A DNA stretch of 42,125 nucleotides, from the IMG/VR virus record IMGVR_UViG_2651869821_000001. One strand, 5' to 3'. Position numbers and translations under genes: made by a program. The notes beneath the pieces were generated by a model. It searched no databases. It saw nothing but the letters and a program-made list of their open reading frames with translations, and had not been told where the DNA came from. The stretch comes from a virus (lineage: Duplodnaviria; Heunggongvirae; Uroviricota; Caudoviricetes). Shown piece after piece: positions 4,975 through 17,896 of this stretch (the stretch's first letter is position 1; every line of letters begins with the position of its first letter).

Positions 4975-5038
4975 TAACAAAATGTTTTTTACCTTATCCG
5001 CATTGCGATAATTACACCAACAAGAAAACAAGATGTTT
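4975..5038 (+). promoter_or_regulatory. Repeated promoter cassette, copy D
   Basis: TAACAAAATGTTT at 4975, TTTTTACCT, TGcGATAAT at 5004-5012, CACCAACAAG, AAACAAGATGTTT at 5026-5038. Confidence 0.75.
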
Positions 5039-5051
5039 ACGCATTGAGGAT

Positions 5052-5339: not shown

Positions 5340-5353
5340 GAGAGATTTTTACG

Positions 5354-5614
5354 ATGGCAAAATTAACCAGATCACAGGAGCGTGACCTGCAACGCGCAAT
5401 CTACGATCTTGAAAGAGGAATCGCTTATCTGCGACACCCCAAGACTGCGGTCTGCTATCGCCACGATTATCCCGCAACTACCACATCGGCGTATTCATCA
5501 CATGACGGGAAGACTTCACTTTCCCCCGTTTGCATCGACTATGGTTCGGATATTGTCGGCCTTTATGATGCGCTAAAAACCGTGAAAGAGTTCGTTGCAG
5601 CACATAGGAAGTAA
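5354..5614 (+). CDS. Hypothetical protein (86 aa)
   Basis: Co-oriented with the previous gene, AGAGAG RBS, followed by a hairpin. Confidence 0.7.
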   Translation: MAKLTRSQERDLQRAIYDLERGIAYLRHPKTAVCYRHDYPATTTSAYSSHDGKTSLSPVCIDYGSDIVGLYDALKTVKEFVAAHRK

Positions 5615-5620
5615 CGATAT

Positions 5621-5642
5621 AGGCCACCAATGCTGGTGGCCT
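5621..5642 (+). terminator. Hairpin AGGCCACCA-ATGC-TGGTGGCCT (contains Chi GCTGGTGG)
   Basis: Perfect 9-bp stem after the stop at 5614; Chi octamer at 5632-5639. Confidence 0.55.
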
Positions 5643-5653
5643 TAAACAACCAT

Positions 5654-5699
5654 CCTCTTTCCCGTAGGCTAAAATCACCCACCTCTTACCGCCAGGCTA
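5654..5699 (+). repeat. Tandem pair of CCTCTT-N6-AGGCTA motifs (locus 2)
   Basis: Exact copies start at 5654 and 5682 (28 bp period). Confidence 0.75.
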
Positions 5700-5736
5700 C
5701 CGAACTATCCAGTCAACCGCAGGCCATAATCTGCCG

Positions 5737-5807
5737 TAACAAAACGTTTTGATGCCTCACACACATAGCGATAATTATCACCAATAAGAAAACAAATTGT
5801 TTAGAGG
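5737..5807 (+). promoter_or_regulatory. Repeated promoter cassette, copy E
   Basis: TAACAAAACGTTT at 5737, GCGATAAT, CACCAATAAG, AAACAAATTGTTT at 5790-5802, GAGG RBS. Confidence 0.75.
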
Positions 5808-5816
5808 ATTATCACC

Positions 5817-6299
5817 ATGAATTTTATCGCTACCGTAAACACCCCGGTTCATGGCTCTATTTTTGTGACTTTCTCAGATATAGACAAGACAGTCATTGGC
5901 GCCTGGCGTGACAATGTAACCATCGAGCTGTCCGGGAAAGAGAAACAGCAGATCACCAATGACATTATCTGCAACCGTCGCCATAAGCGCGTATTTGAGA
6001 AAGCGTATGTCTCCACTTCGGGATTTGGCGTATTCATCTTCCCGGTACGCAGCGGTCGCTTCTGCCAGTCTAAACTCATCGATTTCGCCACTCAGATCGC
6101 TTTATGGGTTAAAACGGAATCCGGATTCAACTTTACCGAACAGGAAGCTGTGGGGGAGGGGATGCGCATTGCCAACAACGCCATCAAGTGCAAAAACGTT
6201 ACCTACGAAGCAGGAATCGACTCGTGGAGTGTCTCGTGCGGGGAATACGTGAAAGAGGTGTACTGGAAGAACCGCATTCATATCCTGACTGGCAGATAA
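5817..6299 (+). CDS. Hypothetical protein (160 aa)
   Basis: GAGGA RBS after cassette E, followed by a GC-rich hairpin and T-run. Confidence 0.8.
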   Translation: MNFIATVNTPVHGSIFVTFSDIDKTVIGAWRDNVTIELSGKEKQQITNDIICNRRHKRVFEKAYVSTSGFGVFIFPVRSGRFCQSKLIDFATQIALWVKTESGFNFTEQEAVGEGMRIANNAIKCKNVTYEAGIDSWSVSCGEYVKEVYWKNRIHILTGR

Positions 6300-6334
6300 G
6301 AGGGGAGGGGCTGGAAGCGCCCCCTCTCTTTTCT
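6299..6334 (+). terminator. Probable intrinsic terminator
   Basis: GAGGGG...CCCCTC stem followed by TCTTTTCTT. Confidence 0.5.
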
Positions 6335-6393
6335 TCAATCAACTGCCGCAGGGAACTTCAGGAACGGCCAGATTACATTCGAACAATCCAACA

Positions 6394-6422
6394 GAAACGG
6401 CCAGAAAATTTTCGGGAAACGG
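6394..6422 (+). repeat. 29-bp direct repeat, copy 2
   Basis: Identical to 3354-3382; a partial GAACGGCCAGA lies upstream at 6362. Confidence 0.9.
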
Positions 6423-6819
6423 TTGGGGTCGCCTCATGGGAAAAATTTGTATAGAGGGAGACGAACAATTGTCACCAACCGGTGGACGTGAGCTGTTTTT
6501 GCGCATACGCCCAGCGCTACGATCTGCTATGTGTAAGTTAACCACTGTTAGCGCGTACACGTTGCGCCAACGTGATAATGATACGCGAGCGCCAACGTAT
6601 AACGCCATTATTGCCGCCACGTCCCGAAGGATGGCGTGAACGCGTCGCCAGATTAGCACGCCAACGACACAACAAAACAGCACCATTACAACCGCTGCGG
6701 GCCTCGCATTTTAAGCGTTTTTATATGTTGGCTATGGGTATGTATAGCTGTATGTGAAAACTAGCGAGGGTAACGCGTTTATGGCGCTTATTTTTGGTGT
6801 GAATGAGTGAGCGCCAGAT

Positions 6820-6848
6820 AAAAGAAAACGCGCCAACAATGGCGCGTT
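6820..6848 (-). terminator. Intrinsic terminator (minus strand, second of a tandem pair)
   Basis: AACGCGCCA-ACAA-TGGCGCGTT with an A-rich run on its left. Confidence 0.65.
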
Positions 6849-6869
6849 ATGGTGTGAGTATTGAAAACG

Positions 6870-6893
6870 AAAAAAGCGCCCATAGTGGACGCT
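6870..6893 (-). terminator. Intrinsic terminator (minus strand)
   Basis: AGCGCCCA-TAG-TGGACGCT preceded by A6 on the + strand, immediately after the stop of 6899..7126. Confidence 0.65.
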
Positions 6894-6898
6894 TGATT

Positions 6899-7126
6899 TT
6901 ATTGATGTAAACTTATTTTAAATCCCATTTCAATAAACGCTTTAAACATTAAAAGTATATCAGCGTTGTTGATTCCAATATCAGAACGCTCAATATCATT
7001 TAATAAATCAATTTTACGCGTTGTTTCATCTATAAGCTCAACAGATCCAGCATAACCTGCGATCCCAGCAATATCATTAACCCAATATTCATTGTGGACG
7101 TTAACGCCAGCGATAATAGTAAACAT
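6899..7126 (-). CDS. Hypothetical protein (75 aa)
   Basis: AGGGAC RBS; last gene of a minus-strand, AT-rich three-gene unit. Confidence 0.7.
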   Translation of the reverse strand: MFTIIAGVNVHNEYWVNDIAGIAGYAGSVELIDETTRKIDLLNDIERSDIGINNADILLMFKAFIEMGFKISLHQ

Positions 7127-7145
7127 GTTTAAGTCCCTTAAAAAA

Positions 7146-7349
7146 TTAAATAGAATTTTGAAGTTTTCCGATTAATGCGCTTAAACGTAAATATTCACGT
7201 TTGCGCTTGCAGTCTCGTTTGCTGTTAAGCAAATCAGTAAAAGTAAAATTGAGTTTATCGCGTTGCGCTTTTAGATCGTCGATTAATTCCAGTTTATAAG
7301 CGCGATACTTTGCGCGATACTCTTCGCGGATCTGGTCATAGCTGGTCAT
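7146..7349 (-). CDS. Hypothetical basic helical protein (~67 aa)
   Basis: The ATG at 7349 has a GGATAG RBS. The track start at 7376 lies inside a hairpin (GCGCCCAT-A-ATGGGCGC). Confidence 0.65.
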   Translation of the reverse strand: MTSYDQIREEYRAKYRAYKLELIDDLKAQRDKLNFTFTDLLNSKRDCKRKREYLRLSALIGKLQNSI

Positions 7350-7398
7350 GGCTTCTATCCTTAAACTAGCGCCCATAATGGGCGCCTAATCCGTCTAC

Positions 7399-8049
7399 TT
7401 ATGCTTTGAACGCGTCGGCAAGATAGTTATAGAAATCATTCTTGATAAAGCGGTATTGTTGTGTACCAGCTTTCGCTATTCCAACACCTTTAATTTTTTC
7501 TACCAGTCCAAGACGTTCACAAAGATTAATTAACTGGTTTGCCTGAGTGTATCCAGCGTCTAACTTAACTTCGTATTCTTTTTTTGCTTCATTCATTAGA
7601 TCGTATACTGCGCCGTTAGTGAACGTTTCCATTTCATCATTAATCATTTCAACTAATGCGAATACACGAGACCCTGACATATCAGCGACGGAATAAACAC
7701 ATTTACCAGCTTTGATAGATGTAACCAGATATACCAATTTTTCAAGCGAGTAACTGTTAGTCATAGCTTCGCGGAAAAATACTTCTGGCGCTTGTTTGCT
7801 TGCTTTAATCGCGTAGTAGAAAACACCCGATAACTTATCATCATTGACAGCGTTTACTACATTGTTAGTAAAGTATGCTAACTTAGTAGACGTCGCCATC
7901 ATATTAGCTTTATCCGCTTTGGTGTGCGTGCCATTTTTATAATGTTCGTTATAAGTCTGGACCGCGAGATCTGCTTTGGCTTTTAATTCTTCTGTAATAA
8001 CAAAAGTAGCTTCGATAATGGATTTTTTAGAGATGGGGAAGTTAGACAT
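7399..8049 (-). CDS. Hypothetical protein with a possible C-terminal winged helix (216 aa)
   Basis: AAGGA RBS; the C-terminal YTQANQLINLCERLGLVEK...QYRF resembles a wHTH recognition helix plus wing. Confidence 0.8.
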   Translation of the reverse strand: MSNFPISKKSIIEATFVITEELKAKADLAVQTYNEHYKNGTHTKADKANMMATSTKLAYFTNNVVNAVNDDKLSGVFYYAIKASKQAPEVFFREAMTNSYSLEKLVYLVTSIKAGKCVYSVADMSGSRVFALVEMINDEMETFTNGAVYDLMNEAKKEYEVKLDAGYTQANQLINLCERLGLVEKIKGVGIAKAGTQQYRFIKNDFYNYLADAFKA

Positions 8050-8320
8050 GATATGTATCCTTTTGAGAAAATTAAAAATTAATTTTTTGTATCGTTAGCA
8101 TGTCTGCTTTCGATGTGAGTAATTATCGAATAACGGTTTTTTTTTGCAAGTCTTTTTTGTCAGGTAGTCGAAAAAAAATAATTATTTCAAAATCAATGTC
8201 TTAGAAATAAACTCAGTTTTTAAGAAGGTGTTCCCTAAATAAATACCCAATTTGGCATATCGCCCTTATATATTTGTGTTGAGGATGCTAATTGTGAAAA
8301 TAGCTACTAGGTAGCGATGA

Positions 8321-8348
8321 AAAATAATAACCGGACGTGTCCGGTTAT
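8321..8348 (-). terminator. Intrinsic terminator of the accessory operon
   Basis: ATAACCGGAC-GT-GTCCGGTTAT inverted repeat with an A-rich left flank, just after the stop at 8361. Confidence 0.7.
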
Positions 8349-8360
8349 CACCCTTATAGA

Positions 8361-8669
8361 TTATTGAGAAGGTTCGACAAATTTGCGATTAGTCTCAAAA
8401 AGCGCGTCGATAAAATCTGCCGAAGACTCGCTATCGTCACATTCAAGTAATTTACGATTTTCAGACGAAAGACTTTTACATAGTTCGATATTCTCGCCAA
8501 TTGTTTTTCCTGCTTTAACACCTGCTGAGAACTGGTACATGCAAATCGACACATTATCCGACGATGAACAAACATCGTTCATAAGTGACTGGATAACCGG
8601 CTTATAGTCCATCGCCGAAACGGCATATGGAGTAATAAAAAGCATGGAGGATAGAAAAATAACTTTCAT
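8361..8669 (-). CDS. Secreted/periplasmic protein with four Cys (102 aa)
   Basis: N-terminal signal peptide MKVIFLSSMLFITPYAVSA and four cysteines in the mature part. Confidence 0.75.
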   Translation of the reverse strand: MKVIFLSSMLFITPYAVSAMDYKPVIQSLMNDVCSSSDNVSICMYQFSAGVKAGKTIGENIELCKSLSSENRKLLECDDSESSADFIDALFETNRKFVEPSQ

Positions 8670-8672
8670 AGT

Positions 8673-9197
8673 TTATATCGGTAAAATACGTTCGACCCAA
8701 TCAAATAAAATAATCATTCGTCGATGCTTGCCAATTCTAATTGTCACTTGGCAAGCATCGACGCCAAGTGTAGTCCCATCAATTTCACGACCGTCAGCCA
8801 TGTAGACTCTTATAGATTTTTGCTCATGATGAGCTTGACGACAAATTTTGAAGAAGTCGCGGCGAGATGGTAGGTGGCTCTCCTCTTCGTTACTTATCGT
8901 TAATCTACCGGTGAACGTCTTATCCACTTCGTTAGTGGTAACTGTCTCTATAGTGCTTACTCTTTCTAGCGGGAGACGGACGCGATGCTCTTTACTTCCA
9001 ACAACTGGAGAAAGATCTAGCTTGTTGCGTGCAGTAAGCAGACCGTTTACATAAAGACAGAACGTCTGACTGTCATCTGTCGTGACCCTTACAGGAATTT
9101 CCTTTGCACGCATAAATTGCAAACTGAACTCTATACTGGAGTAATCACGAGGCCAGACTTCTGCAGGTATACCGTATGTGATATCTGTGGTGGACAT
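8673..9197 (-). CDS. Protein with two Sm-like (Rof/Hfq-like) domains (~174 aa)
   Basis: Likely start is MSTTDITY at 9197, which avoids overlap with the lipoprotein gene. Two helix+beta units resemble the Sm fold (see findings). Confidence 0.7.
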   Translation of the reverse strand: MSTTDITYGIPAEVWPRDYSSIEFSLQFMRAKEIPVRVTTDDSQTFCLYVNGLLTARNKLDLSPVVGSKEHRVRLPLERVSTIETVTTNEVDKTFTGRLTISNEEESHLPSRRDFFKICRQAHHEQKSIRVYMADGREIDGTTLGVDACQVTIRIGKHRRMIILFDWVERILPI

Positions 9198-9201
9198 AAA
9201 T

Positions 9202-9624
9202 TTATAAAGTTGTAGGTAATAGATCCATTGTACCATCCCATGATGTATATACTCGATATTTTTTCGTGTCTCCATTATTCAACTTTACCTCTCGCTCCAT
9301 CCTTGATGGGTTTAAGGCGCAAAGACCAGAACTTTCCAAAGATGAACCTACAACCCACTCACCTTCACTGAGATAGAAAGTTGCCTTTTCACCTGTTTTA
9401 AGCTTGGCAACAATGTCGCCATTTATGAATATAGTAGCGTTACATCCAGAACCAGTTAAACCTTTATCTCGTACAATAGTTAATGTTGTTTCTGTCGGGA
9501 TCTGGTATTTAAGCACTCTATTCTGTGGTGCTAATTTTGCCTCAGTTGCTGGAACTGAAGACGTGGAACATGCTGTGAGCATGGTTACGGAAATAAAACC
9601 TATAACAAAAAATTTATAGCCCAT
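9202..9624 (-). CDS. Lipoprotein (DUF2846-like)
   Basis: Signal peptide with lipobox LTAC; the IVRDKG..G...IFING..VAKL..GE pattern is typical of small beta-sandwich lipoproteins. Confidence 0.85.
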   Translation of the reverse strand: MGYKFFVIGFISVTMLTACSTSSVPATEAKLAPQNRVLKYQIPTETTLTIVRDKGLTGSGCNATIFINGDIVAKLKTGEKATFYLSEGEWVVGSSLESSGLCALNPSRMEREVKLNNGDTKKYRVYTSWDGTMDLLPTTL

Positions 9625-9645
9625 GATTTTAGTACCTTATCATAT

Positions 9646-10218
9646 TTATGAACAATGGTTAGGTTTGATAGCATGACATCTATCGTATATGTCTTCTAGC
9701 AAATCGTTTCTTCTGATGTCACGACAAATATCATTAAAATGTAACCGCTTAGATACTATACTTTTGTTATACAGCTCTAAAAAATTCTTTAACGAATCTC
9801 TGGATTCAAATAAAAACGAAAATCCATACATGGAAGTTGCATTGATGATTATATTCTTGGCACTTGGATAACCAACAAGATTAGAATGCAACTCAAGTTT
9901 TCCAAATCTGACCCCATTACACTCATGCATGAGATTTGCAAGAGTTAATATATTATATGGGTAGAAAATTATGCCGCAGTTTGTCCTGTCACCTATAATA
10001 TCTTTTATATATACATAATGCTCATAATCATCTTTTTGGGATGCCTGTAACCTGTAACTAATTAGCTTATGATCGCCTTTCTCACGTGGGATGATGTTGG
10101 TCAGTTTACTTAAACAAGATTTTTTTGATTTGTAATATATATAAATTGTATCTTTGATATCCTTTGCACTTAAATAATCAGAATTAAGTGGAAGATGTCC
10201 CATTGTAACCTCTAGCAC
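9646..10218 (-). CDS. Hypothetical protein, very AT-rich (190 aa)
   Basis: Long ORF in very AT-rich DNA, where chance ORFs are rare. The start may be the internal ATG (MGHLPL). Confidence 0.7.
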   Translation of the reverse strand: MLEVTMGHLPLNSDYLSAKDIKDTIYIYYKSKKSCLSKLTNIIPREKGDHKLISYRLQASQKDDYEHYVYIKDIIGDRTNCGIIFYPYNILTLANLMHECNGVRFGKLELHSNLVGYPSAKNIIINATSMYGFSFLFESRDSLKNFLELYNKSIVSKRLHFNDICRDIRRNDLLEDIYDRCHAIKPNHCS

Positions 10219-10473
10219 GTACTTTGAGTTTAGGTAACATTTAATTCGTATAAGCCTACCCAGACAATGTAGCCAATCAAGATCTTTTTTCAGCCGGAGG
10301 TATTTGTAAATAAAAATTTGATATAGATCACATGCAAGTGATCGATGATGGCTGCATGTTGGTCGTTATTTGTTCAGTGGTTTATATTGATAAGTTCTCC
10401 ATCATGTGCTCGTTTTACACTTATGACGAGCACATGATGGAGTTTGAAAGTAGAGCGGTGCAAAGATGATAAG

Positions 10474-10752
10474 TTATGTCAAACGTTTAAGGATGTCCTC
10501 CAGATCTTCTTTGGTCATAGGTGAATTTTCATAAATCTTCATGACCTTTTCACGAGCTTTTGTCGTAGCCTCTAGTGATGTTGCTGCTTTGTCAAAATCA
10601 GATATTGTCATTTTTGATAACACCAAATTTATAATTTCAGCTTTAGATAGCTTGATGTTCCGTTCACGCAATCGACTTTGAAAGGCTTCCAGTTTGTCGT
10701 TTGCCTTCTCTGTCAATGGAACCTGACAATACGTAGCTCGTTTTTCGCTCAT
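10474..10752 (-). CDS. Ribbon-helix-helix-like protein (92 aa)
   Basis: Begins 2 bp after the helicase stop; YCQVPLTEKANDKL...LSKAEIINLVL pattern. Confidence 0.7.
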   Translation of the reverse strand: MSEKRATYCQVPLTEKANDKLEAFQSRLRERNIKLSKAEIINLVLSKMTISDFDKAATSLEATTKAREKVMKIYENSPMTKEDLEDILKRLT

Positions 10753-10754
10753 GG

Positions 10755-12314
10755 TTACTCTCTTTTCAAAACAGTAAAATCGAAGGTGCTGTCTACTGGC
10801 AATACGCCTTCAGCAAAACCAGGTGTTGTATCTATGATGTTCTTCCGCTCATATGAATGCGACATCAGATGTTTATTTGACACGTCAATGAAATCGGTAA
10901 TGAAACATACATTAGCCTGATTTTTTTTAGATCGCAGACCGCGGCCAACTCGCTGGCGCATTTCAACCTCTGCTTTTCCGCCACCAGCCAAAATCACCGC
11001 CCCAACACTTGGCACATCGACACCAACATCCAATATAGTTGAACCAATCAGGACATCGATTTTACCCGAAGCCAGACTGTTAAGTTTTGCTTGTCTTGTT
11101 GCCTGATTTGACTCTCCGTATATGAAGTCGACATTTAGACCGCTTTCTTTCATCATTTCCATCAGAATTTGTCCGTGACGTTTTAAGCGAACCAGCGTCA
11201 TGCAATTCAGACCATGACTTTTATACATCAAGGCTTCACGGACGATGGTGTCGTTACGTGCCAGATTATAAACAATACCTAACTGATATGCTTTTTGGTA
11301 TGCGGTACTCATACCAACTCTGAAATTTAGATGTTTTGATGCTAGTTCAGAACGGATTCGCGCCTCATCAGGAGTGTACGCGATTTTATGATAAAGAAAG
11401 TACGGTTTAGCTAAAATGCCTCTATCAATCAGATACTTCTCTGTGACCTTTATCTCAATACGACCAGCTACTGCCATTAAACGCATGTTAGCTTCAGTTG
11501 AGTCTTTCATGAACGGTGTTGCCGTTAATGCAAGTCGATAATCGGCATTAATGCATAGTCGTGAGATATCGTAGAAATTTGAGCCTGATGACTCGTGAGC
11601 CTCTTCCAGAATGAGCAATGAAACGCTGGAAAGAAAGTTTTTCACTAGTTCTCGGCGCTTGAGATGGTAAGTTTTTTTACTAGACGAAGCATCACGTGGA
11701 GGCTCTTCAAGAAAGCTGGCCAGGGTTTGTACTGTTGCGACGTTGATATGGCGTGATACCTGAAACTCCCCAGACCCTATGATTCCAACTTTTTGTCCTT
11801 TAAGCCACGGCTCGCCATTCTCCGCGCGGTAGTCGATGGATTTCTGGAAGTTCTCTGCCATCTGGAACATCAGAACCGATCGCGTGGTTAAAAACAGCGT
11901 CATACGACCAATGCGAGCAGCTGCCTTACACGCTACGTTCGATTTACCGCCACCCGTCGCAATCTGGGCGATCATCATCCCTTCACGCACCAGTGTTTCC
12001 ACTGTCTGATCCTGATACGCATAGTCCGGGTTATACGGGAATGGGTTAACTACCGGGTTCGGCTTGCCCAGCGAAGGGGCTTTTTCCTTGCGGACATGCA
12101 CGCATTTGATGCCGGCTTTTAGAAGGTTGGCCACAACTGGCTTCGCAAACCCAGCCGGGAAAGCGTTTTTACTCCAGTTGAACATCGTGCTGGTTCCTTT
12201 CCAGTCACCAGTCTCCACCTCATAGCTTAACATCTCCTGAACGAGCCGCTTCACGTTGTCATCAGCGCCAGAAATCAGCGCATTGACTGCATTAGATACA
12301 ATCCGAACTGTCAT
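10755..12314 (-). CDS. SF2 DEAD/DEAH-box helicase (UvsW/ResIII-like)
   Basis: Motif I ATGGGKS, motif II LEEAH, motif III TAT, motif V STILDVGVDV, motif VI QRVGRGLR. Confidence 0.92.
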   Translation of the reverse strand: MTVRIVSNAVNALISGADDNVKRLVQEMLSYEVETGDWKGTSTMFNWSKNAFPAGFAKPVVANLLKAGIKCVHVRKEKAPSLGKPNPVVNPFPYNPDYAYQDQTVETLVREGMMIAQIATGGGKSNVACKAAARIGRMTLFLTTRSVLMFQMAENFQKSIDYRAENGEPWLKGQKVGIIGSGEFQVSRHINVATVQTLASFLEEPPRDASSSKKTYHLKRRELVKNFLSSVSLLILEEAHESSGSNFYDISRLCINADYRLALTATPFMKDSTEANMRLMAVAGRIEIKVTEKYLIDRGILAKPYFLYHKIAYTPDEARIRSELASKHLNFRVGMSTAYQKAYQLGIVYNLARNDTIVREALMYKSHGLNCMTLVRLKRHGQILMEMMKESGLNVDFIYGESNQATRQAKLNSLASGKIDVLIGSTILDVGVDVPSVGAVILAGGGKAEVEMRQRVGRGLRSKKNQANVCFITDFIDVSNKHLMSHSYERKNIIDTTPGFAEGVLPVDSTFDFTVLKRE

Positions 12315-12360
12315 AAATCTCTTTCCTTCGTGCCTTTTGTATGGTAATTGGCTATTATAG

Positions 12361-12380
12361 TAAGTAAGTACTTATACAAT
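12361..12380 (+). promoter_or_regulatory. TAAGTAAGTACTTA palindrome plus TACAAT -10
   Basis: Lies in the 64-bp gap between the divergent helicase and ParB-like genes. Confidence 0.65.
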
Positions 12381-13077
12381 GGATTGTATCAGAATTATGG
12401 ATGTGAATATTACGATTCTGCAGGTGGAAGTCGCTAACCTGCGTCCGAATCCCTGGAATACCAACTCCGTTGGGGCGCAAAACTTCGAAAAGCTGAAAGG
12501 CTCTATCGAAAAATTGGGCTTTTTTAAGCCAATTCTGGCGCGGGAGCTGGACGGCGACGTTTTTGAGATCCTCGGTGGTGAACACCGCTGGCGTGCCGCG
12601 ATGGAGCAGGGGATTTCAACGGTTCCAGTCATCTCTGTGGGCAAAATTAACGACCTGGTAGCCAAACAGATGTCCTTGGTCGATAACGAGCGCTACGGCG
12701 AAGACGATCAGGTCGCTTTGCAGCGCTTAATCGAAGAAATCCAGTCTGAAATCGACTACCGGTTGTCCGATATCGCTCCGTATGACGACGAAATGGCTGC
12801 AACACTCGCAAAAGCGTCCGTTATCGATCTTGAAGCGCTGGAAGCGCTCTCCCGTGGCGATGACGAGCCGATCGATGAGGACAAACGCGAGAAAACCGAG
12901 CGAGTCGGCGCTGAACACCAGACGATGCGCTTCAAAGTGACGTTTGATGCGTCAGATCGCGTCGCCGACACCATCAAAACCATCATCAAAGAGCAGGGAA
13001 TCAATACCGGTAACGAAATGGAGAACGCCGGTGAAGCCCTGGTGTGGCTGGTCGACTACTACAAGGAGCGTATGTAA
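12379..13077 (+). CDS. ParB/Srx N-terminal domain protein 1
   Basis: LRPNPWN, PILAR, and GGEHRWRAA (GxxRxxA motif). No HTH seen. Alternative start at 12397. Confidence 0.9.
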   Translation: MDCIRIMDVNITILQVEVANLRPNPWNTNSVGAQNFEKLKGSIEKLGFFKPILARELDGDVFEILGGEHRWRAAMEQGISTVPVISVGKINDLVAKQMSLVDNERYGEDDQVALQRLIEEIQSEIDYRLSDIAPYDDEMAATLAKASVIDLEALEALSRGDDEPIDEDKREKTERVGAEHQTMRFKVTFDASDRVADTIKTIIKEQGINTGNEMENAGEALVWLVDYYKERM

Positions 13078-13745
13078 TGACCAAAAACTTTGAAATCGTC
13101 TATCGAAACCCGGCAGAACTCATCCCGTATGAGATGAACGCCAAAAAACATGACGAACAGCAGATCCGCGACTTGGCTGCCGCAATCAAAAAGCGCGGTT
13201 TTGACCAGCCGATCACGATCGACAAGAACGACGTCATCATTACTGGCCACGGTCGTCGCGAGGCGGCACTTCTGGCTGGACTGGAGCGTGTGCCGGTCAT
13301 CATTCGCGACGATCTGAGCGAAGAAGAAGTGAAGGCGAAGCGTCTGGAAGACAACCGCCTGTCCAGTATCGACTATGACGCTATCAAATTACAGCAGGAG
13401 CTGGAATCTCTGGTGCTGGGCGACGTCGAGGTCTTCGGTTTTGAAGAACGTGAGCTGAATGTATTGGTAGGCAGCATGACTGAAGAGATGGAAACCGGCT
13501 CTTTGGTACTAGATCTTGGCGAAGAGACTGAGCGTCAGAAAGAAGAGCACACCGAGATTAGTCGCGAAGTGGCTTCTGAAGAAGTCCGCGTCATCGACGT
13601 ATTGGGTTTTAAAACGCTCCCTGCTGGCTCTGCCATTGTGGTTGGTGATTTGCTTGCCCACATGGAAGAAATTACAGGAGAAAGCGGGGTAGACGCTTTC
13701 GTGGCGTATGCGGAGAAAGTTTCTTCTGGGGAGCTGGCTGCATGA
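13077..13745 (+). CDS. ParB/Srx N-terminal domain protein 2
   Basis: TAATG overlap with the upstream gene; LIPYEMNAKKH, GFDQPI, TGHGRREAA, and DNRL motifs; acidic C-terminal half. Confidence 0.9.
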   Translation: MTKNFEIVYRNPAELIPYEMNAKKHDEQQIRDLAAAIKKRGFDQPITIDKNDVIITGHGRREAALLAGLERVPVIIRDDLSEEEVKAKRLEDNRLSSIDYDAIKLQQELESLVLGDVEVFGFEERELNVLVGSMTEEMETGSLVLDLGEETERQKEEHTEISREVASEEVRVIDVLGFKTLPAGSAIVVGDLLAHMEEITGESGVDAFVAYAEKVSSGELAA

Positions 13746-14380
13746 GCAAATACACCATCAACGTATCGTTTCAGACCCGCGTGAACAAAACCACGCGCAC
13801 ACTGGAGATTGCCGAATCGTTCGGTCTTGGTCTGGACGAAAAAGAGTGGACGCTTTACGACAATCTGACGCTGGAAGTGAAGCAGGGCGATGTAGTGTAC
13901 ATCACCGGCCAATCCGGTTCAGGCAAATCCGTTGTGCTGCGCGATCTGCAACGCCAGATGAAAGATGAAGGGCTTTCTGTGGCCTCCATCGATGATTTTA
14001 CCTTCGACAATGAGGTTAACGTCATTGACCAGCTGGGGAAAACCACCAGCGAAGCGCTAGGGCTGCTATCTATGGCCGGATTGAATGATGCCTATCTCTT
14101 TGTGCGCAAGCCATCCGAAATGTCTGACGGCCAGAAATACCGTCTGAAGATCGCCAAGCTGATTGAGTCCGGCGCAAAAGTCTGGGCAGCCGACGAATTT
14201 GGAGCTGTTCTCGACCGTGTAACCGCTCAGGTAGTGGCTTCAAATCTCCAGCGCGCCGCACGTAAGGTTGGTGCGACGGTAATGGTGGCGACGACCCACG
14301 AAGACCTGAAGAACGCGCTGCGCCCGGATATGCAGATCACCAAACACTACAAAGAACGAGTGAAGGTTGAATATGCCTGA
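13742..14380 (+). CDS. Stand-alone ABC-type ATPase
   Basis: Walker A GQSGSGKS, signature MSDGQ, Walker B WAADEF, H-loop ATTH; ATGA overlap. Confidence 0.92.
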   Translation: MSKYTINVSFQTRVNKTTRTLEIAESFGLGLDEKEWTLYDNLTLEVKQGDVVYITGQSGSGKSVVLRDLQRQMKDEGLSVASIDDFTFDNEVNVIDQLGKTTSEALGLLSMAGLNDAYLFVRKPSEMSDGQKYRLKIAKLIESGAKVWAADEFGAVLDRVTAQVVASNLQRAARKVGATVMVATTHEDLKNALRPDMQITKHYKERVKVEYA

Positions 14381-14627
14381 TTTGAAAATTGTAGAACTGA
14401 AGCACTCAAGAGAGACTGATGACAACAATGCCGAGGTTATACGTCTTCTTGAAGAAGCTCTCAAATATGCCAAAGAAGGTAAAAGCCAAAGCATGGCGAT
14501 TTTGCTTATCAATAGTGACGGTAGCGTTCTGGATTGCTGGCATTCAGGTGGGCGCCCATACGTCATGGTTGGAGCGATGGAGTCACTTCGTCTTGACTTC
14601 ATCAACGCTAATATTGAGCGCAGGTGA
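14373..14627 (+). CDS. Hypothetical protein (84 aa)
   Basis: Overlaps both the ABC and GNAT genes. Confidence 0.7.
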   Translation: MPDLKIVELKHSRETDDNNAEVIRLLEEALKYAKEGKSQSMAILLINSDGSVLDCWHSGGRPYVMVGAMESLRLDFINANIERR

Positions 14628-15523
14628 GCGACATGGCAGACGTCATCATCAAACGCTACCGTCCGGAAGAGTTCCCGCGTCATCTGGACTTTCTGGAGCG
14701 TATGACCGTTACAAAAGGCACGGTTGAAGACTGGCACGCGCTGAAGTCGCTGCATTACAAGACGGATGGTAAGCCGTTCGCGCCAACGTATTACCGCTGC
14801 GAACTGGACGGCCGGCTGGTGGGTGTCGTGGTTATGGCTTACCCGAAACTGCTTCTGGCGCCTCGCCATCGCATGTTTCCTAAGCTGAAGCCAACCTCTA
14901 ATACCACTGTGGCCAACCAGTATTGGGGTCGGTACGTGAACAACAACTTTGCAGTGATCAGCCGTTCCGTTGTGGACACTCAGTACCGCGGTGTCGGCGT
15001 CTCCTATCGAATGATTAACTTGGTTAGCAGGATGCATGACCGGCCAATCATCGAGATCCAGTCGTCAATGAGCAAATACAACCCGTTCGCCATGAAAGCA
15101 GGGTTCCAGTTTATCCGTCCTGAGCGTCCGAAGAGCTATGAAAGTGCTCTACGTGTATTCCAGCGCCATTTCCGTTCAGACCCTGGCGATAACGAAGCGA
15201 TTGTCAAAGAACTATTAGCTATGAGTGAACCTCGTCGTCGTCGTGCGCTACGCGATCTGGTTGCGGACTATCACAAGAACAGTTCTCTTGCCAAAGCTGG
15301 ACGTAATCGCGGCACCACAGTTCAGGACATTGCCGACAGTCTGGTGGATGAGGCCAGTATCGTGAAACTACTCAAGGATATTCATAATCTGAGCTTCACA
15401 TCTCCGCTATATGGCGTGTATCGCAACCCTGATTTTGGTCGAAAATTACCAGACACACTACCACTGCTGGCATTTGATAAACAGCCTTTTGATAAACCTC
15501 TAGAAATTGCTTTACCGGCATAA
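14624..15523 (+). CDS. GNAT-fold acyltransferase (Mom-like candidate)
   Basis: The acyl-CoA binding motif A is VISRSVVDTQYRGVGVS; N-terminal WHALKSLHY. Alternative ATG at 14633. Confidence 0.8.
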   Translation: MSDMADVIIKRYRPEEFPRHLDFLERMTVTKGTVEDWHALKSLHYKTDGKPFAPTYYRCELDGRLVGVVVMAYPKLLLAPRHRMFPKLKPTSNTTVANQYWGRYVNNNFAVISRSVVDTQYRGVGVSYRMINLVSRMHDRPIIEIQSSMSKYNPFAMKAGFQFIRPERPKSYESALRVFQRHFRSDPGDNEAIVKELLAMSEPRRRRALRDLVADYHKNSSLAKAGRNRGTTVQDIADSLVDEASIVKLLKDIHNLSFTSPLYGVYRNPDFGRKLPDTLPLLAFDKQPFDKPLEIALPA

Positions 15524-15532
15524 GGATTTGCC

Positions 15533-15799
15533 ATGACTTTAACCGACAAACAAAAAGACATCATCAAAACCATCAATTTAGGTCATGAACGTGGCCACTT
15601 GCTCGATCTGGATGAATTGCTGGAAGTGCTTCCGTACAAAACAACTAAACAAAGTATGCAGTTTTCGATTCGCGCACTGGTGAAAAAAGGGCTGGTTGAG
15701 AAAGGAATATGTCGCCAGCGCGATGACTCTGGTTACTACCGTCGCACTCTGGGGCTGACAACATTAGGTCGGGCAAGAGCTAAGTTACTGGTGATGTAA
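15533..15799 (+). CDS. Winged-helix transcription regulator (LexA-N-like)
   Basis: LTDKQKDIIKTI...MQFSIRALVKKGLVEK parallels the LexA DNA-binding domain. No peptidase domain. Confidence 0.75.
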   Translation: MTLTDKQKDIIKTINLGHERGHLLDLDELLEVLPYKTTKQSMQFSIRALVKKGLVEKGICRQRDDSGYYRRTLGLTTLGRARAKLLVM

Positions 15800-15821
15800 G
15801 TTCAACTGGGAGTCAGTTTAT

Positions 15822-15881
15822 AGCCTGCTTCCGTATATTAAATAATAAATCACTTATTAAATATATATACGGAAGCAGGCT
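15822..15881. repeat. 17-bp perfect inverted repeat with a 26-nt AT-rich spacer
   Basis: AGCCTGCTTCCGTATAT at 15822-15838 and ATATACGGAAGCAGGCT at 15865-15881. Confidence 0.9.
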
Positions 15882-15942
15882 TTGAAAAATACTCAATTCT
15901 GATTTAATCATCCCAGAAAACAAATTAGTTAGAAATATCTAT

Positions 15943-15955
15943 AAACAAATTGTTT
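15943..15955. promoter_or_regulatory. AAACA-N3-TGTTT operator upstream of terS
   Basis: AAACAAATTGTTT exact copy; a half-site AAACAAAT occurs at 15918. Confidence 0.6.
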
Positions 15956-15995: not shown

Positions 15996-16637
15996 ATGAC
16001 TGTAGAAAAAGACGAGAGTAAAACTCGCCTGACACCAGCTGAGTGGGCTGAAGCCGAAGCGAAGTGGACATCAGGCGAGTACACACTCTCAAAGCTGGAA
16101 GAAGAGTACGGCATTCGTCGTGAAACGCTATCCAGACATTTTAAAAAGCGCGGCTTAGAGAAAGGTGCCGATTCCGTTGGAAAGATGGTACGAGAATCAC
16201 TCAAATCCGATGCTGAACTGCGTGCAAGAGCGCGTGCAGATAAAATCGAAGAACGCCGTACTCGCTATGATGACTGGGCTTTTGCATTAGGTCGTATGGT
16301 GATGCACGAGGTTGCTACTGCTAAAAAGGAAGGCAAACCTCTCGCTGCTATTGAAGACGATCTGAAGAGTCTTCAGCGTGCAAGTGGCACGCTTGCTAAG
16401 TGTTTCGATATCTCATCGAAAGCACTAGGCATGGATCGTGTAGAAAACGACGAAGAAGAAATTCCAAACCTGGTATTTGGCGAACTTACGCCATCTCAGG
16501 TGGCGCAGCTGCGTAAGGAAGAAGATGAGCCTGAGTCGATTGATGATGATCTGCTTGAGTCACTTGAAGAGGAAGCTCTGAGCGAAGCTGATAGCGATTC
16601 TAGCGCGTTGAGCGATGAAGTAGATGGGAGAGATTGA
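15996..16637 (+). CDS. terS: Terminase small subunit
   Basis: Directly upstream of TerL; N-terminal HTH (YTLSKLEEEYGIRRETLSRHF), central coiled coil, acidic tail. Confidence 0.8.
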   Translation: MTVEKDESKTRLTPAEWAEAEAKWTSGEYTLSKLEEEYGIRRETLSRHFKKRGLEKGADSVGKMVRESLKSDAELRARARADKIEERRTRYDDWAFALGRMVMHEVATAKKEGKPLAAIEDDLKSLQRASGTLAKCFDISSKALGMDRVENDEEEIPNLVFGELTPSQVAQLRKEEDEPESIDDDLLESLEEEALSEADSDSSALSDEVDGRD

Positions 16638-16639
16638 TT

Positions 16640-17896
16640 ATGTCCATCCCGTCGTCTCTGAGTCTCGTGCAGCTGCATTCTGGGCAGATGCAAGTCTTCC
16701 AGTCTCCACATCGTTTCAAAGTGGTGTGTGCGGGGCGACGCTGGGGTAAATCTCGGCTGTCGATCTCCACCATCATCCGTGCGGCAGCCAAAGAGAAGAA
16801 ACAACGCGTCTGGTACGTTGCACCGACATATCAGATGGCTCGCCAGATCTTATGGGATGATCTGCAGGAAGTTCTACCGCGTAAATGGGTTCGGAAGAAA
16901 AACGACACCACGATGACCATCGTGTTGAAGAACGGATCGGAAATAGCGCTCAAAGGCGCCGATAAACCCGATACGCTCCGTGGTGTTGCGCTGCACTTCG
17001 TAGTTCTTGATGAGTTTCAGGATATGAAGGCTGACACCTGGTACAAGGTGCTTCGTCCGACATTGTCCTCTACTCGCGGTGGCGCGCTTATCATCGGTAC
17101 ACCGAAAGGTTTCTCGGAGTTCCACAAACTGTGGACTATAGGACAGAACAAGGAACTGCAACGCAAAGGTCAGTGGAAGAGCTGGCAGTTTGTTACCGCC
17201 GACTCTCCGTTCGTTCCAACTGCGGAAATCGAAGCCGCGAAGAATGATATGGACCCGAAGTCGTTCGCTCAGGAGTATCTTGCAAGCTTCGAAAACATGT
17301 CCGGACGTGTTTATTACCCGTTTGATCGAAACGTGCATGTGAAGCCACTACAATTCAATCCAAAACTACCGGTATGGGTTGGACAGGACTTCAATATCGA
17401 CCCAATGTCCTCAGTTATTCTACAGCCGCAGCCAAATGGTGAGTTGTGGGCCGTGGACGAGGTTGTGCTGTTCTCTTCCAACACGGCAGAAGTGTGCGAT
17501 GAGTTGGAGCGTCGATTCTGGCGCTGGAAATCACAGGTCACGGTTTTCCCTGACCCTGCTGGTGCGTATCGTCAGCACGCACGAGGCGAATCAGACGTTG
17601 ATATCTTCAAGGAGAAGGGGTTCCTGCGCGTAGATTATCCGAAGAAACATCCGCCGATCGCAGATCGTGTGAATGCGGTTAATCGCATGTTGATGAGTGC
17701 TTCTGGTGAAATACGATTGTATATCGATCCGAAGTGTAAACATCTCATCGACTCTCTTGAAAAAGTCATATACAAACCAGGTTCGCGCGATATAGATAAG
17801 TCTGGCGGTATAGAACACAGCGCAGATGCGTTAGGCTATCCCGTTCATCGTAGGTATCCGGTGAAAAATCGTGTTATTCTTGGTGGATCTAGATAG
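16640..17896 (+). CDS. terL: Terminase large subunit
   Basis: Walker A CAGRRWGKS, Walker B VVLDEF, motif IIGTPKG, nuclease residues GQDFN and HSADALGY. Confidence 0.95.
   Translation: MSIPSSLSLVQLHSGQMQVFQSPHRFKVVCAGRRWGKSRLSISTIIRAAAKEKKQRVWYVAPTYQMARQILWDDLQEVLPRKWVRKKNDTTMTIVLKNGSEIALKGADKPDTLRGVALHFVVLDEFQDMKADTWYKVLRPTLSSTRGGALIIGTPKGFSEFHKLWTIGQNKELQRKGQWKSWQFVTADSPFVPTAEIEAAKNDMDPKSFAQEYLASFENMSGRVYYPFDRNVHVKPLQFNPKLPVWVGQDFNIDPMSSVILQPQPNGELWAVDEVVLFSSNTAEVCDELERRFWRWKSQVTVFPDPAGAYRQHARGESDVDIFKEKGFLRVDYPKKHPPIADRVNAVNRMLMSASGEIRLYIDPKCKHLIDSLEKVIYKPGSRDIDKSGGIEHSADALGYPVHRRYPVKNRVILGGSR

What the first reader, a model, noticed from the sequence alone, without database searches (positions are those of the whole stretch)
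12379..15523. ParB-ParB-ABC ATPase-ORF-GNAT cluster before terminase: candidate packaging-linked DNA modification system
Seen in sequence: five genes with overlapping stop/start codons. Two are ParB/Srx N-domain proteins with GxxR motifs and no HTH. One is a complete ABC ATPase with no membrane partner. One is a GNAT with motif A (QYRGVGVS) and a long C-terminal extension. The cluster lies directly upstream of a regulator and terS/terL. Established: Mu Mom is a GNAT-fold enzyme that acylates adenine in DNA for anti-restriction, and ParB-like domains are often fused or linked to phage DNA-modification enzymes near terminases. Inference: an ATP- (and possibly CTP-) driven machine that acylates virion DNA, or a virion or host protein, late in infection. 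There is no parA or parS-binding domain, so partition is unlikely.
Basis: partly seen in the sequence, partly recalled or inferred. Interest (0 to 1): 0.75.

Follow-up and report, generated by a model that had tools for sequence, protein, structure and literature searches.

The report
Phage ParB-ABC ATPase-GNAT acyltransferase operon
Beside the DNA-packaging genes of this SSU5-type phage-plasmid lies a real, deeply conserved operon of two ParB-like proteins and an ATP-driven acyltransferase split into two genes; it most likely adds an acyl mark to phage DNA, an idea already published as a prediction but never tested.

Summary
Window 12379-15799 is a tightly coupled six-gene operon: ParB1, ParB2, a minimal soluble ABC ATPase, a small variable ORF, a GNAT-fold protein and a small basic protein. 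A strong hairpin ends it just before terS/terL.

The element is an SSU5/pHCM2-type phage-plasmid (92% nt identity to phage SSU5). 773 PLSDB plasmids carry the block.

ABC and GNAT are the two halves of an enzyme that is one polypeptide elsewhere. Natural fusions include ABC-GNAT, ParB-ABC-GNAT and family-B DNA polymerase-ABC-GNAT.

The order ParB, ABC(-GNAT), terminase, portal recurs in unrelated phages of Streptococcus, Gordonia, Leptospira and Pasteurella.

The GNAT keeps a CoA-type R-x-x-G motif and is very basic. Its "C-terminal extension" is really a helical insert inside the GNAT core. It is not a Mom family member.

SSU5 has its own ParA plus small partner 30 kb away, so partition is unlikely.

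Best reading (about 45%): a ParB-assisted, ATP-dependent acyl-CoA transferase acting on phage DNA. Aravind's group predicted this (cited to 2013, restated 2021), and I found no experimental test.

This scan has already reported the same module on other DNA at least seven times. Verdict: real and important if tested, but not new as a computational finding.

The parts
10755..12314 (-). Context: SF2 (DEAD/ResIII, UvsW-like) helicase, transcribed divergently from the operon. The 64-bp spacer 12315-12378 should hold both promoters.
   Evidence: Pfam ResIII/DEAD/Helicase_C; PHROG 16. It is conserved next to ParB1 in the loci with enough flank.
12379..13077 (+). ParB1 (232 aa, pI 4.5). It has a ParB/Srx N domain (12-102) with PNPWNTN, GGEHR 66-70 and DNERYG 102-107. 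An acidic vestige of the middle domain follows (111-158), then a disordered acidic linker (160-178) and a confident C-terminal strand-helix-helix domain (180-231).
   Evidence: Pfam ParB_N 52 bits; PHROG 723 E 1.6e-84. AF2 model pLDDT 80. Best Foldseek matches are Noc and ParB-CDP, E 6e-9. Ortholog alignment A2; charge.
13077..13745 (+). ParB2 (222 aa from ATG 13077, pI 4.5). It has a ParB/Srx N domain with PYExNAKxH and GHGRR 57-61, of the type fused to phage DNA methyltransferases. The C-terminal half is acidic and ends in a conserved LGFK...TGxxG module.
   Evidence: Pfam ParB_N 33.7 bits; PHROG 930 E 7.6e-114 and PHROG 498 'DNA methyltransferase' N-terminal region E 1.7e-32; PADLOC MTase_II N-terminal region. 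Alignment A3; start codon.
13742..14380 (+). Minimal soluble ABC ATPase (212 aa) with every nucleotide-binding-domain motif. It is the ATPase half of a split ABC-GNAT enzyme.
   Evidence: Pfam ABC_tran 50 bits; PHROG 293 E 1.3e-57; motifs. It is 39% identical over 201 aa to the ABC part of the fused ParB-ABC-GNAT protein P0236, and 52-63% identical across alpha-, beta- and gammaproteobacterial loci.
14373..14627 (+). orf84 (PHROG 796), a small phage protein of unknown function. It is a variable passenger in an insertion spot between ABC and GNAT, not a core part.
   Evidence: PHROG 796 E 1.6e-44. It is absent in Cyrano. In 30 loci the gap holds nothing, orf84, a 182-189 aa protein, or ORFs that look thioredoxin-like (CxxC motif), HAD-like or membrane-spanning. 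The Atlas gives only viral hypothetical proteins.
14624..15523 (+). GNAT-fold acyltransferase half (299 aa from GTG 14624, or 296 aa from ATG 14633; pI 9.8, net charge +15). The motif A loop is at 120-127, with R122 and G125 invariant. A helical insert (about 166-258) lies between alpha4 and beta6.
   Evidence: PHROG 886 E 1.5e-163. AF2 pLDDT 88. GNAT matches Z 9.7-11.8 and Foldseek. Invariant columns. The family profile hits the C-terminal part of fused ABC-GNAT proteins at E 1e-16 to 1e-29.
15533..15799 (+). orf88 (PHROG 900), a small basic protein (pI 9.9) and the last gene of the operon. It may be a winged-helix DNA binder; this is a lead only.
   Evidence: PHROG 900 E 2.5e-47. It is conserved after the GNAT in most gamma- and betaproteobacterial loci. 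A minority of Atlas neighbour clusters carry MarR_2, HTH_IclR or Penicillinase_R.
15817..15886 (+). A 22-nt-arm inverted repeat forming a very stable hairpin. It is the likely terminator that separates this operon from the packaging operon. The AAACAAATTGTTT operator at 15943-15955 follows it.
   Evidence: the repeat finder. Fold -37.5 kcal/mol, z = -9.8. Operator position.
15996..17896 (+). Context: a 213-aa acidic protein with an N-terminal DNA-binding region (PHROG 867, the probable small terminase subunit), overlapping the large terminase (16634-17896). The portal gene follows at 17916.
   Evidence: PHROG 867 E 3.9e-102; Pfam Terminase_6N and PHROG 2 / 10250 for TerL; ATGA-type overlap.

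Best explanation
The operon encodes a ParB-assisted, ATP-dependent acyltransferase that acts on replicated phage DNA before or during packaging.

Shown:
- ABC (13742-14380) and GNAT (14624-15523) are the two halves of one enzyme that is a single polypeptide in many other viruses.
- ParB-like proteins are its constant partners.
- The GNAT keeps the acyl-CoA pyrophosphate loop (R122-x-x-G125-x-S) and is strongly basic.
- The set is a core module that sits next to the terminase.

Inferred:
- ParB1 and ParB2 have a nucleotide-binding N domain and a C-terminal dimerisation-type module but no evident DNA-binding domain. They may load or hold the enzyme on dsDNA, as the 5mYOX-associated ParBs appear to do.
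- The ABC dimer may use ATP to open or remodel the substrate site, as the ATPase domain of TmcA/NAT10 does for RNA.
- The GNAT may transfer an acyl group from acyl-CoA to an exocyclic amine of a base. Its basic core and helical insert would form the DNA cleft.
- The product would be acyl-marked virion DNA, which could serve against host restriction or as a self mark for packaging.
For: - Split enzyme: the GNAT profile finds 1017 relatives. Many are 440-500 aa proteins with Pfam ABC_tran in front of the matched GNAT part. The window's ABC is 39% identical to the ABC part of such a fusion.
- ParB partnership: ParB_N-ABC-GNAT single proteins exist, although their ParB_N hits fall below Pfam's cut-off (P0236; the P0218 cluster of 640-668 aa seen on several contigs). 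ParB1-ParB2-ABC-GNAT are kept together in every locus with enough flank, at 37-46% GNAT identity.
- DNA link: family-B DNA polymerase-ABC-GNAT fusions occur (1260 aa on 12 contigs, and a second cluster with a 1266 aa member), as does a Gins51-ABC-GNAT fusion. The order ParB, ABC(-GNAT), terminase, portal is found in Streptococcus, Gordonia, Leptospira and Pasteurella phages.
- Chemistry: GNAT fold at Z 11.8; invariant R122/G125 loop; pI 9.8 and +15 charge.
- Insert position: the helical insert is at the same topological position as the DNA-binding insert that is essential in Mom (PMC13219725).
- Precedent: a phage ParB lacking a DNA-binding domain activates a DNA base-modifying enzyme specifically on dsDNA (PMC13229309).
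- Published prediction of the same function (PMC7824862, citing Iyer et al. 2013).
Against: - No result here identifies the substrate.
- In the fold searches, protein N-acetyltransferases (NatA, RimI), small-molecule GNATs, TmcA/NAT10 and Mom all score alike.
- The ParB proteins are very acidic and have no recognisable DNA-binding domain, so their contact with DNA is assumed.
- N6-acyl adenine is reported to be chemically unstable (PMC13219725), which narrows the possible products.
- I found no report of unusual bases or restriction resistance in SSU5-type, Nickievirus or RHEph10-type phage DNA. None of the papers I opened reports such a test.
- The hairpin after orf88 shows the operon is a separate transcription unit from the packaging genes. 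Co-expression with packaging is therefore not shown.
Confidence: 0.45

Rival explanations
1. The enzyme acetylates a protein that sits on DNA. The target could be a phage packaging or replication protein (terminase subunit, portal, polymerase) or a host nucleoid protein. ParB would serve as the DNA-bound platform and ATP would drive engagement with the substrate.
For: Most characterised GNATs that match the model equally well are protein N-acetyltransferases (NatA/Naa10, Ard1, RimI). Fusions to DNA polymerase B, GINS and TFIIB could mean the fused partner is the target or the neighbourhood. Phage GNATs that acetylate host proteins are known (Rac of phiKMV, described in PMC7824862).
Against: None of the protein acetyltransferases matched here is coupled to an ABC ATPase. 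The strong positive charge of the GNAT (+15) fits a nucleic-acid substrate better. The constant ParB partnership parallels a DNA base-modifying system (PMC13229309).
Confidence: 0.2
2. The module is an accessory of DNA packaging or of the handover from replication to packaging. ParB clamps and the ABC ATPase would organise or mark concatemeric DNA for the terminase, for example in choosing the packaging start site. The GNAT would play a regulatory or degenerate role.
For: The position immediately upstream of terS/terL/portal is invariant in phages of four phyla. The ABC ATPase is as conserved as TerL (52-63% versus 53-63%). In Streptococcus prophage 315.4 only an 89-aa ORF, matching just the start of the GNAT part, follows the ABC gene.
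Against: The GNAT residues of the cofactor loop and many others (34 invariant columns) are strictly conserved, as expected of an active enzyme. The ABC protein has no coiled coil or DNA-binding insert of the SMC/Rad50 kind (212 aa). The hairpin separates the operon from the packaging genes.
Confidence: 0.12
3. The substrate is RNA (tRNA or rRNA), as for TmcA/NAT10. An ATPase would remodel the RNA and the GNAT would make N4-acetylcytidine or a similar mark, to tune translation late in infection.
For: TmcA, NAT10 and Kre33 are among the top Foldseek hits (E 1.4e-4 to 3e-4). They are the only characterised GNATs known to need an ATPase domain (my own knowledge).
Against: Those matches are no better than dozens of other GNATs and have rmsd near 15 A. 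The ATPase here is an ABC domain, not the RecD-like helicase domain of TmcA. The ParB partners, the polymerase and GINS fusions, and the terminase linkage all point to DNA.
Confidence: 0.08
4. The two ParB proteins are the plasmid's partition proteins, and the ABC ATPase replaces ParA.
For: They are the only ParB_N proteins in the complete SSU5 genome. Records annotate them as partition proteins.
Against: SSU5 has a ParA-like gene followed by a 96-aa partner with a ribbon-helix-helix-like sequence pattern, 30 kb away. The module's ParBs lack an HTH and are acidic. The same module occurs in many phages not described as plasmids and in integrated prophages.
Confidence: 0.03

Closest known systems
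ABC ATPase-coupled GNAT of phages and archaea (COG2401 / 'MK0520' type; PHROGs 293, 886, 11143). It is predicted to make an uncharacterised acyl modification of a DNA base (Iyer, Zhang, Burroughs & Aravind 2013, as restated in Iyer et al. 2021, PMC7824862).
   Same: It has the same two catalytic domains in the same order. Homology to the fused forms is shown. It is phage-borne. Some records already annotate the window's GNAT gene with this name.
   Different: Here the enzyme is split into two genes with a variable insertion spot between them. It is accompanied by two distinct ParB paralogues and a small basic protein. I could not read the 2013 paper itself, so I cannot say how much of this it already describes.
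Mom of phage Mu (GNAT-fold DNA adenine modifier; PMC13219725)
   Same: It has a GNAT fold (Z 10.9, rmsd 3.3 A, 142 residues aligned). It has a helical insert between alpha4 and beta6, which in Mom is essential and is modelled to bind DNA. It is phage-encoded.
   Different: There is no detectable sequence relationship (hhalign probability 0.3%). Mom works alone, without an ATPase or ParB, and uses Gly-tRNA(Gly). The window's protein keeps a CoA-type R-x-x-G-x-S loop.
ParB-dependent phage thymine dioxygenases (5mYOX/ParB pairs; PMC13229309)
   Same: A phage ParB-like protein with a nucleotide-binding N domain and a C-terminal domain, but no obvious DNA-binding domain, is encoded beside a post-replicative DNA-modifying enzyme and is needed for that enzyme's action on dsDNA. 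ParB1 has this architecture.
   Different: The partner enzyme there is a Fe(II)/2-oxoglutarate dioxygenase, not an ABC-GNAT. Two ParB paralogues are present here. Homology between these ParBs and the 5mYOX-associated ones was not tested.
TmcA / NAT10 / Kre33 (ATP-dependent RNA cytidine N4-acetyltransferases)
   Same: A GNAT works together with an ATPase module on a base in a structured nucleic acid. These proteins are among the top Foldseek hits.
   Different: Their ATPase belongs to a different class (helicase-like rather than ABC). Their substrate is RNA. They have no ParB partners, and the structural match is not specific.
Canonical ParABS partition systems
   Same: The ParB/Srx N domain carries GxxR and a box-III-like DNxR motif. 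The best structural matches are Noc and ParB bound to CDP.
   Different: There is no HTH domain and no adjacent ParA. The C-terminal halves are acidic. The plasmid carries a separate ParA with a small partner.

Membership tests
ABC ATPase-coupled GNAT (COG2401/MK0520 type; predicted DNA-base acyltransferase) | ABC nucleotide-binding domain with a complete motif set | tested here: met
   Walker A 56-63, Q-loop, SDGQ 128-131, Walker B 147-152, D-loop and H-loop; Pfam ABC_tran 50 bits.
ABC ATPase-coupled GNAT (COG2401/MK0520 type; predicted DNA-base acyltransferase) | GNAT-fold domain with an acyl-CoA binding loop | tested here: met
   AF2 pLDDT 88 and GNAT matches at Z 9.7-11.8. R122 and G125 are invariant in 30 sequences. 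Cofactor binding itself was not tested.
ABC ATPase-coupled GNAT (COG2401/MK0520 type; predicted DNA-base acyltransferase) | Homology of both halves to the single-chain ABC-GNAT proteins | tested here: met
   The GNAT profile matches the C-terminal part of 440-1260 aa proteins whose N-terminal part is ABC_tran. The ABC is 39% identical to that of P0236.
ABC ATPase-coupled GNAT (COG2401/MK0520 type; predicted DNA-base acyltransferase) | Acyl transfer to a DNA base | not testable with these tools
   No biochemical or nucleoside data exist in the papers found.
Mom family (phage Mu) | Sequence-level homology to Mom | tested here: not met
   hhalign of the family profile against Mu Mom: probability 0.3%, E 0.18, 11 columns.
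Mom family (phage Mu) | GNAT core with a helical insert before beta6 that forms a basic DNA cleft | tested here: inconclusive
   An insert lies at the same topological place (166-258) and carries net positive charge. It is about 90 residues against about 35 in Mom, and no residue-level superposition was made.
Mom family (phage Mu) | Catalytic residues R111, S124, D149, R151 and use of Gly-tRNA(Gly) | not tested
   No reliable alignment exists to map these residues. The donor cannot be tested here (PMC13219725).
Canonical partition ParB | ParB/Srx N domain with an arginine-patch (GxxR) motif | tested here: met
   Pfam ParB_N above the cut-off for both proteins. GGEHR and GHGRR are invariant in the ortholog alignments.
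Canonical partition ParB | Central HTH domain that binds parS | tested here: not met
   No HTH family appears in Pfam. The ParB1 region 111-158 is low-confidence, acidic and lacks a basic recognition helix. The ParB2 structure was not modelled.
Canonical partition ParB | Adjacent ParA ATPase | tested here: not met
   There is no ParA in the window. In SSU5 the ParA-like gene is 30 kb away with its own small partner.
ABC transporter | Membrane permease partner | tested here: not met
   No hydrophobic segment occurs in any operon protein. Fused relatives carry GNAT, ParB or polymerase domains, not permease domains.
TmcA/NAT10 RNA acetyltransferases | Helicase-type ATPase domain joined to a GNAT_acetyltr_2 domain and a tRNA-binding tail | tested here: not met
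   Pfam finds ABC_tran, not a helicase domain. No GNAT_acetyltr_2 hit appears even at E 5. The structural match is non-specific.
5mYOX-type ParB activators of DNA modification | N-terminal nucleotide-binding domain plus C-terminal domain, without a DNA-binding domain, encoded next to the enzyme | tested here: met
   ParB1 model and gene order. This concerns architecture only; homology to those ParBs and any activator function were not tested (PMC13229309).

The most novel reading that the evidence does not exclude
The module writes a DNA base modification not yet described in any virus: an N-acyl (for example N4-acetylcytosine-type) mark. An acyl-CoA-dependent GNAT would install it on double-stranded DNA. 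The reaction would need both an ABC ATPase and a heterodimeric ParB clamp. That would make it the first ATP-driven DNA acyltransferase and a second, independent case of ParB proteins recruited as cofactors of DNA modification.
Probability: 0.35. Interest if true: 0.85.

Novelty: new member of a known kind. Interest (0 to 1): 0.5.

Why it matters
The block is a core part of SSU5/pHCM2-type phage-plasmids. It is present on 773 PLSDB plasmids of Klebsiella, Escherichia, Enterobacter, Yersinia pestis and Salmonella. Simpler forms sit next to the terminase of phages from at least four bacterial phyla and in archaeal sequences.

Nobody has shown what it does. If it writes an acyl mark on DNA, three things would follow:
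- a new chemical class of phage DNA modification;
- a possible explanation for how these elements cross restriction barriers between clinical hosts;
- wider scope for the newly found role of ParB proteins as cofactors of DNA-modifying enzymes.

SSU5 grows on laboratory Salmonella, and the four genes can be co-expressed in E. coli, so the question is directly testable.

Tried and rejected
- Pfam, NCBIfam and PADLOC give no significant hit for the GNAT. At E up to 5, only 5 of 30 members touch Acetyltransf_10 weakly. A profile search of PDB sequences finds nothing. The fold assignment therefore rests on the model.
- The word-based search for longer proteins found no fused forms, only one odd 1475-aa protein. 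The exhaustive profile search was needed to find them.
- ASCH idea: an ASCH domain next to the module in Streptococcus prophage 315.4 suggested a writer/eraser pair for N4-acetylcytosine. ASCH is present in only 1 of 5 phages that carry the module, so I dropped it.
- RHH idea: the ParB1 C-terminal strand-helix-helix looks like a ribbon-helix-helix. No Pfam RHH family matches at E up to 10, and the Foldseek list is filled by the N domain. It remains an unverified impression.
- Papers on ANB28 and Nickievirus phages, which carry the module, say nothing on ParB, ABC or DNA modification. The Cyrano paper does not discuss these genes. A search for 'MK0520' or 'COG2401' found nothing relevant.
- Iyer et al. 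2013 is not held. The prediction is cited through its restatement in PMC7824862.
Contexts came from the search for related loci and the phage records instead.
- The window's own assembly is not held. The complete SSU5 record served as proxy for whole-genome questions.
- The simple promoter and terminator scan gave no more sites than shuffled sequence. The long hairpin was found by other tools.

Full report
**What the window is.** The region 12379-15800 is 92.4% identical in DNA to Salmonella phage SSU5. It is 83-84% identical to Escherichia phage Cyrano and to Klebsiella phage-plasmids. A Salmonella enterica plasmid in PLSDB is 99.8% identical. In all, 773 plasmid records of Klebsiella, Escherichia, Enterobacter, Yersinia, Salmonella and others carry the block. 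The window is therefore part of an SSU5/pHCM2-type phage-plasmid.

**Checking the observation.** The ORF list and the junction sequences show a compact unit on the plus strand:
- ParB1, 12379-13077.
- ParB2. It is best started at ATG 13077, with an AAGGAG site and a TAATG junction. This matches the Cyrano and SSU5 annotations.
- ABC ATPase, 13742-14380, with an ATGA junction to ParB2.
- An 84-aa ORF from ATG 14373, overlapping the ABC stop by 8 nt.
- The GNAT gene from GTG 14624 (GTGA junction) or from ATG 14633.
- An 88-aa gene, 15533-15799, after a 9-nt gap.

After orf88 comes a 196-nt spacer. It holds an inverted repeat with 22-nt arms that folds at -37.5 kcal/mol (z = -9.8). The operator-like palindrome follows at 15943-15955, and then the probable terS, overlapping terL. 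The unit is therefore a six-gene operon of its own, divergent from an SF2 helicase gene. It lies immediately upstream of the packaging operon but is separated from it.

Both ParB proteins pass Pfam's ParB_N threshold. They carry GGEHR and GHGRR, which are invariant among orthologues. The ABC protein has all nucleotide-binding-domain motifs in 212 residues. No protein of the operon has a membrane-like segment.

**The GNAT.** Sequence libraries do not recognise this protein. An AlphaFold2 model built on 30 homologues is confident (pLDDT 88). It matches more than a hundred GNATs at Z 8 or better, with a best Z of 11.8, and Foldseek agrees.

Across the family the invariant residues are R122 and G125. 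This fits the R/Q-x-x-G-x-G/A loop that binds the pyrophosphate of CoA (my own knowledge of GNATs).

The 'C-terminal extension' is really an insert. Helices 172-257 lie between alpha4 and beta6, and strands 262-267 and 278-280 complete the core. The protein is very basic, with pI 9.8 and net charge +15.

**The ParB proteins.** The ParB1 model (pLDDT 80) has four parts:
- a confident N domain (12-102);
- three weak helices (111-158);
- a disordered acidic linker (160-178);
- a confident C-terminal strand-helix-helix unit (180-231) that is conserved across orthologues (HQxMRFKV...TNAGDAL).

The best structural matches are Noc and ParB bound to CDP. The only sequence similarity that reaches into the HTH region of Spo0J is weak, and it replaces the basic recognition helix by DDEMAATLAKA. 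The C-terminal halves of both proteins carry charges of -17 and -21. 'No HTH' therefore stands.

The architecture is a nucleotide-binding N domain plus a C-terminal domain without a DNA-binding domain. That is the architecture described for the ParB proteins that activate phage thymine dioxygenases on dsDNA (PMC13229309).

**One module, deeply conserved.** A scan of one genome per species found 30 loci encoding the GNAT. In every locus with enough flank the order is helicase (divergent), ParB1, ParB2, ABC, a gap, GNAT, then usually orf88, the terS-like gene, TerL and portal. This holds in gamma-, alpha- and betaproteobacteria at 37-46% GNAT identity. The ABC protein (52-63% identical) is as conserved as TerL.

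The gap between ABC and GNAT varies from 15 to about 1180 bp. It can be empty, or hold orf84, a 182-189 aa protein, or ORFs that look thioredoxin-like (CxxC motif), HAD-like (DxDGT motif) or membrane-spanning. So orf84 is a passenger in an insertion spot and not a component.

**A split enzyme with telling fusions.** An exhaustive profile search gave 1017 relatives of the GNAT. Many are 440-500 aa proteins in which the matched part follows about 200 residues that Pfam calls ABC_tran.

Other architectures:
- ParB_N-ABC-GNAT, though the ParB_N hits fall below Pfam's cut-off (P0236; the P0218 cluster of 640-668 aa on several contigs).
- Family-B DNA polymerase-ABC-GNAT (1260 aa, seen on 12 contigs; a second cluster holds a 1266 aa member).
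- Gins51-ABC-GNAT.
- ABC-GNAT-TFIIB, in Nitrososphaerota.
- An intein inside the ABC domain.

The window's ABC is 39% identical over 201 residues to the ABC part of P0236. ParB2 aligns with the N terminus of P0236. The fusions show two things. ABC and GNAT are one enzyme, with ParB as its partner. The enzyme also keeps company with the replication machinery.

**Link to packaging beyond this lineage.** The split form occurs in isolated phages of Rhizobium, Pseudomonas (Nickievirus), Stenotrophomonas and Xanthomonas. Fused or adjacent forms occur in Streptococcus, Gordonia, Leptospira, Pasteurella, Porphyromonas, Nonlabens and Tenacibaculum phages. In the four I opened, a ParB-like gene comes directly before the ABC(-GNAT) gene, and the terminase and portal genes follow within three genes.

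**Partition.** The complete SSU5 genome has only these two ParB_N proteins. It also has a ParA-like gene 30 kb away, followed by a 96-aa protein whose sequence has a ribbon-helix-helix-like pattern. That pair would be a self-sufficient partition system of the small-ParA type (my own knowledge of plasmid partition classes). The module also occurs in phages and integrated prophages that are not described as plasmids. Partition is therefore unlikely.

**Comparison with what is known.** Iyer et al. [quoted passage not shown] They cite Iyer et al. 2013 (PMC7824862). The 2013 paper is not held. Some records already label the window's GNAT as 'ABC-type ATPase fused to a predicted acetyltransferase domain'.

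The protein is not a Mom relative by sequence. Mom is now shown to use Gly-tRNA(Gly) (PMC13219725). Mom does have an essential helical insert at the same topological position, which is modelled to bind DNA. That is a functional analogy, not kinship. TmcA/NAT10 offer the analogy of an ATPase-assisted GNAT acting on a nucleic-acid base, but the structural match is not specific.

**Most likely mechanism.** ParB1 and ParB2 hold the enzyme on replicated dsDNA. The ABC dimer spends ATP to expose a base. The basic GNAT transfers an acyl group from acyl-CoA to that base. I rate this at about 45%.

Shown:
- the enzyme's composition;
- its partners;
- its conserved cofactor loop;
- its genomic company.

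Inferred:
- the substrate;
- the donor;
- the roles of ATP and of any CTP;
- the biological purpose.

Rivals are acetylation of a DNA-bound protein (20%), a packaging-accessory role (12%), RNA acetylation (8%) and partition (3%).

**Earlier notes of this scan.** A look-up by sequence showed that the same module had been followed up at least seven times on other DNA, with the same conclusion. The pointer to the Aravind prediction came from those notes, and I verified it in PMC7824862. The ParB/5mYOX paper appeared both in my own search and in one note.

I cannot tell how much of the following those follow-ups already contain, since I saw only their summaries:
- the domain anatomy of ParB1;
- the insertion spot between ABC and GNAT;
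- the polymerase, GINS and ParB fusion forms with their recurrence on independent contigs;
- the separate ParA system of SSU5;
- the terminator hairpin that sets the operon apart from the packaging genes.

**Verdict.** This is a real, well-delimited and widely distributed operon of unknown biochemistry. The experiment is straightforward and would be of high interest.

Noticed in passing
window 14380-14624; L005, L007, L010-L030 between the ABC and GNAT genes: The junction between the two halves of the split enzyme is an insertion spot for unrelated small genes. These include thioredoxin-like ORFs with a CxxC motif (L018, L020, L028, L030), HAD-like ORFs (L011, L029), small membrane proteins (L010, L023, L024) and a 182-189 aa protein (L005, L007). 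In several loci the gap is empty.
   Followed up: partly
window 15817-15886 and 15943-15955: A very stable hairpin (22-nt arms, -37.5 kcal/mol, z = -9.8) lies just after orf88, with an AT-rich 26-nt loop. The AAACAAATTGTTT palindrome follows, upstream of the terS-like gene. The SSU5 GenBank record ends inside this spacer.
   Followed up: partly
L006 9941-12190; L021 9826-12421; L029 3493-5031; L012 around 9927-11389: The large terminase gene is interrupted by about 0.9-1.4 kb in Xenorhabdus hominickii, Chelativorans composti and a Rhizobiales MAG. The tblastn match splits into two pieces. This may be an intein or a homing-endonuclease insertion.
   Followed up: no
L031 (Halomonas sulfidaeris chromosome, 3878-12860): A chromosomal copy of the whole helicase-to-portal block exists. 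In it the matches to the helicase, GNAT, terS-like, TerL and portal genes are broken into several pieces, some in different frames. It looks like a decaying integrated element.
   Followed up: no
L004 (Bacillota MAG) and L005 (Candidatus Fimivivens MAG): Contigs binned into Firmicutes MAGs carry this enterobacterial phage-plasmid block at 91-96% protein identity. This is probably a binning error rather than a host jump.
   Followed up: no
P0191, P0275, P0190, P0156, P0166 (proteins): Several natural fusions of the ABC-GNAT enzyme exist. Partners are a complete family-B DNA polymerase (on 12 contigs), the Gins51 C-terminal domain and a TFIIB repeat (Nitrososphaerota). One protein has a LAGLIDADG intein inside the ABC domain.
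   Followed up: partly
L035 3498-4522 (SSU5 30497-31521): The ParA-like gene of SSU5 is followed by a 96-aa protein with a strand-helix-helix sequence pattern. This is probably the real partition pair of the plasmid. It lies outside this window.
   Followed up: partly
L036 5481-5858 (Streptococcus prophage 315.4): An ASCH-domain gene lies between the ABC(-GNAT remnant) genes and the terminase. In this prophage only an 89-aa ORF, matching the start of the GNAT part, follows the ABC gene.
   Followed up: partly
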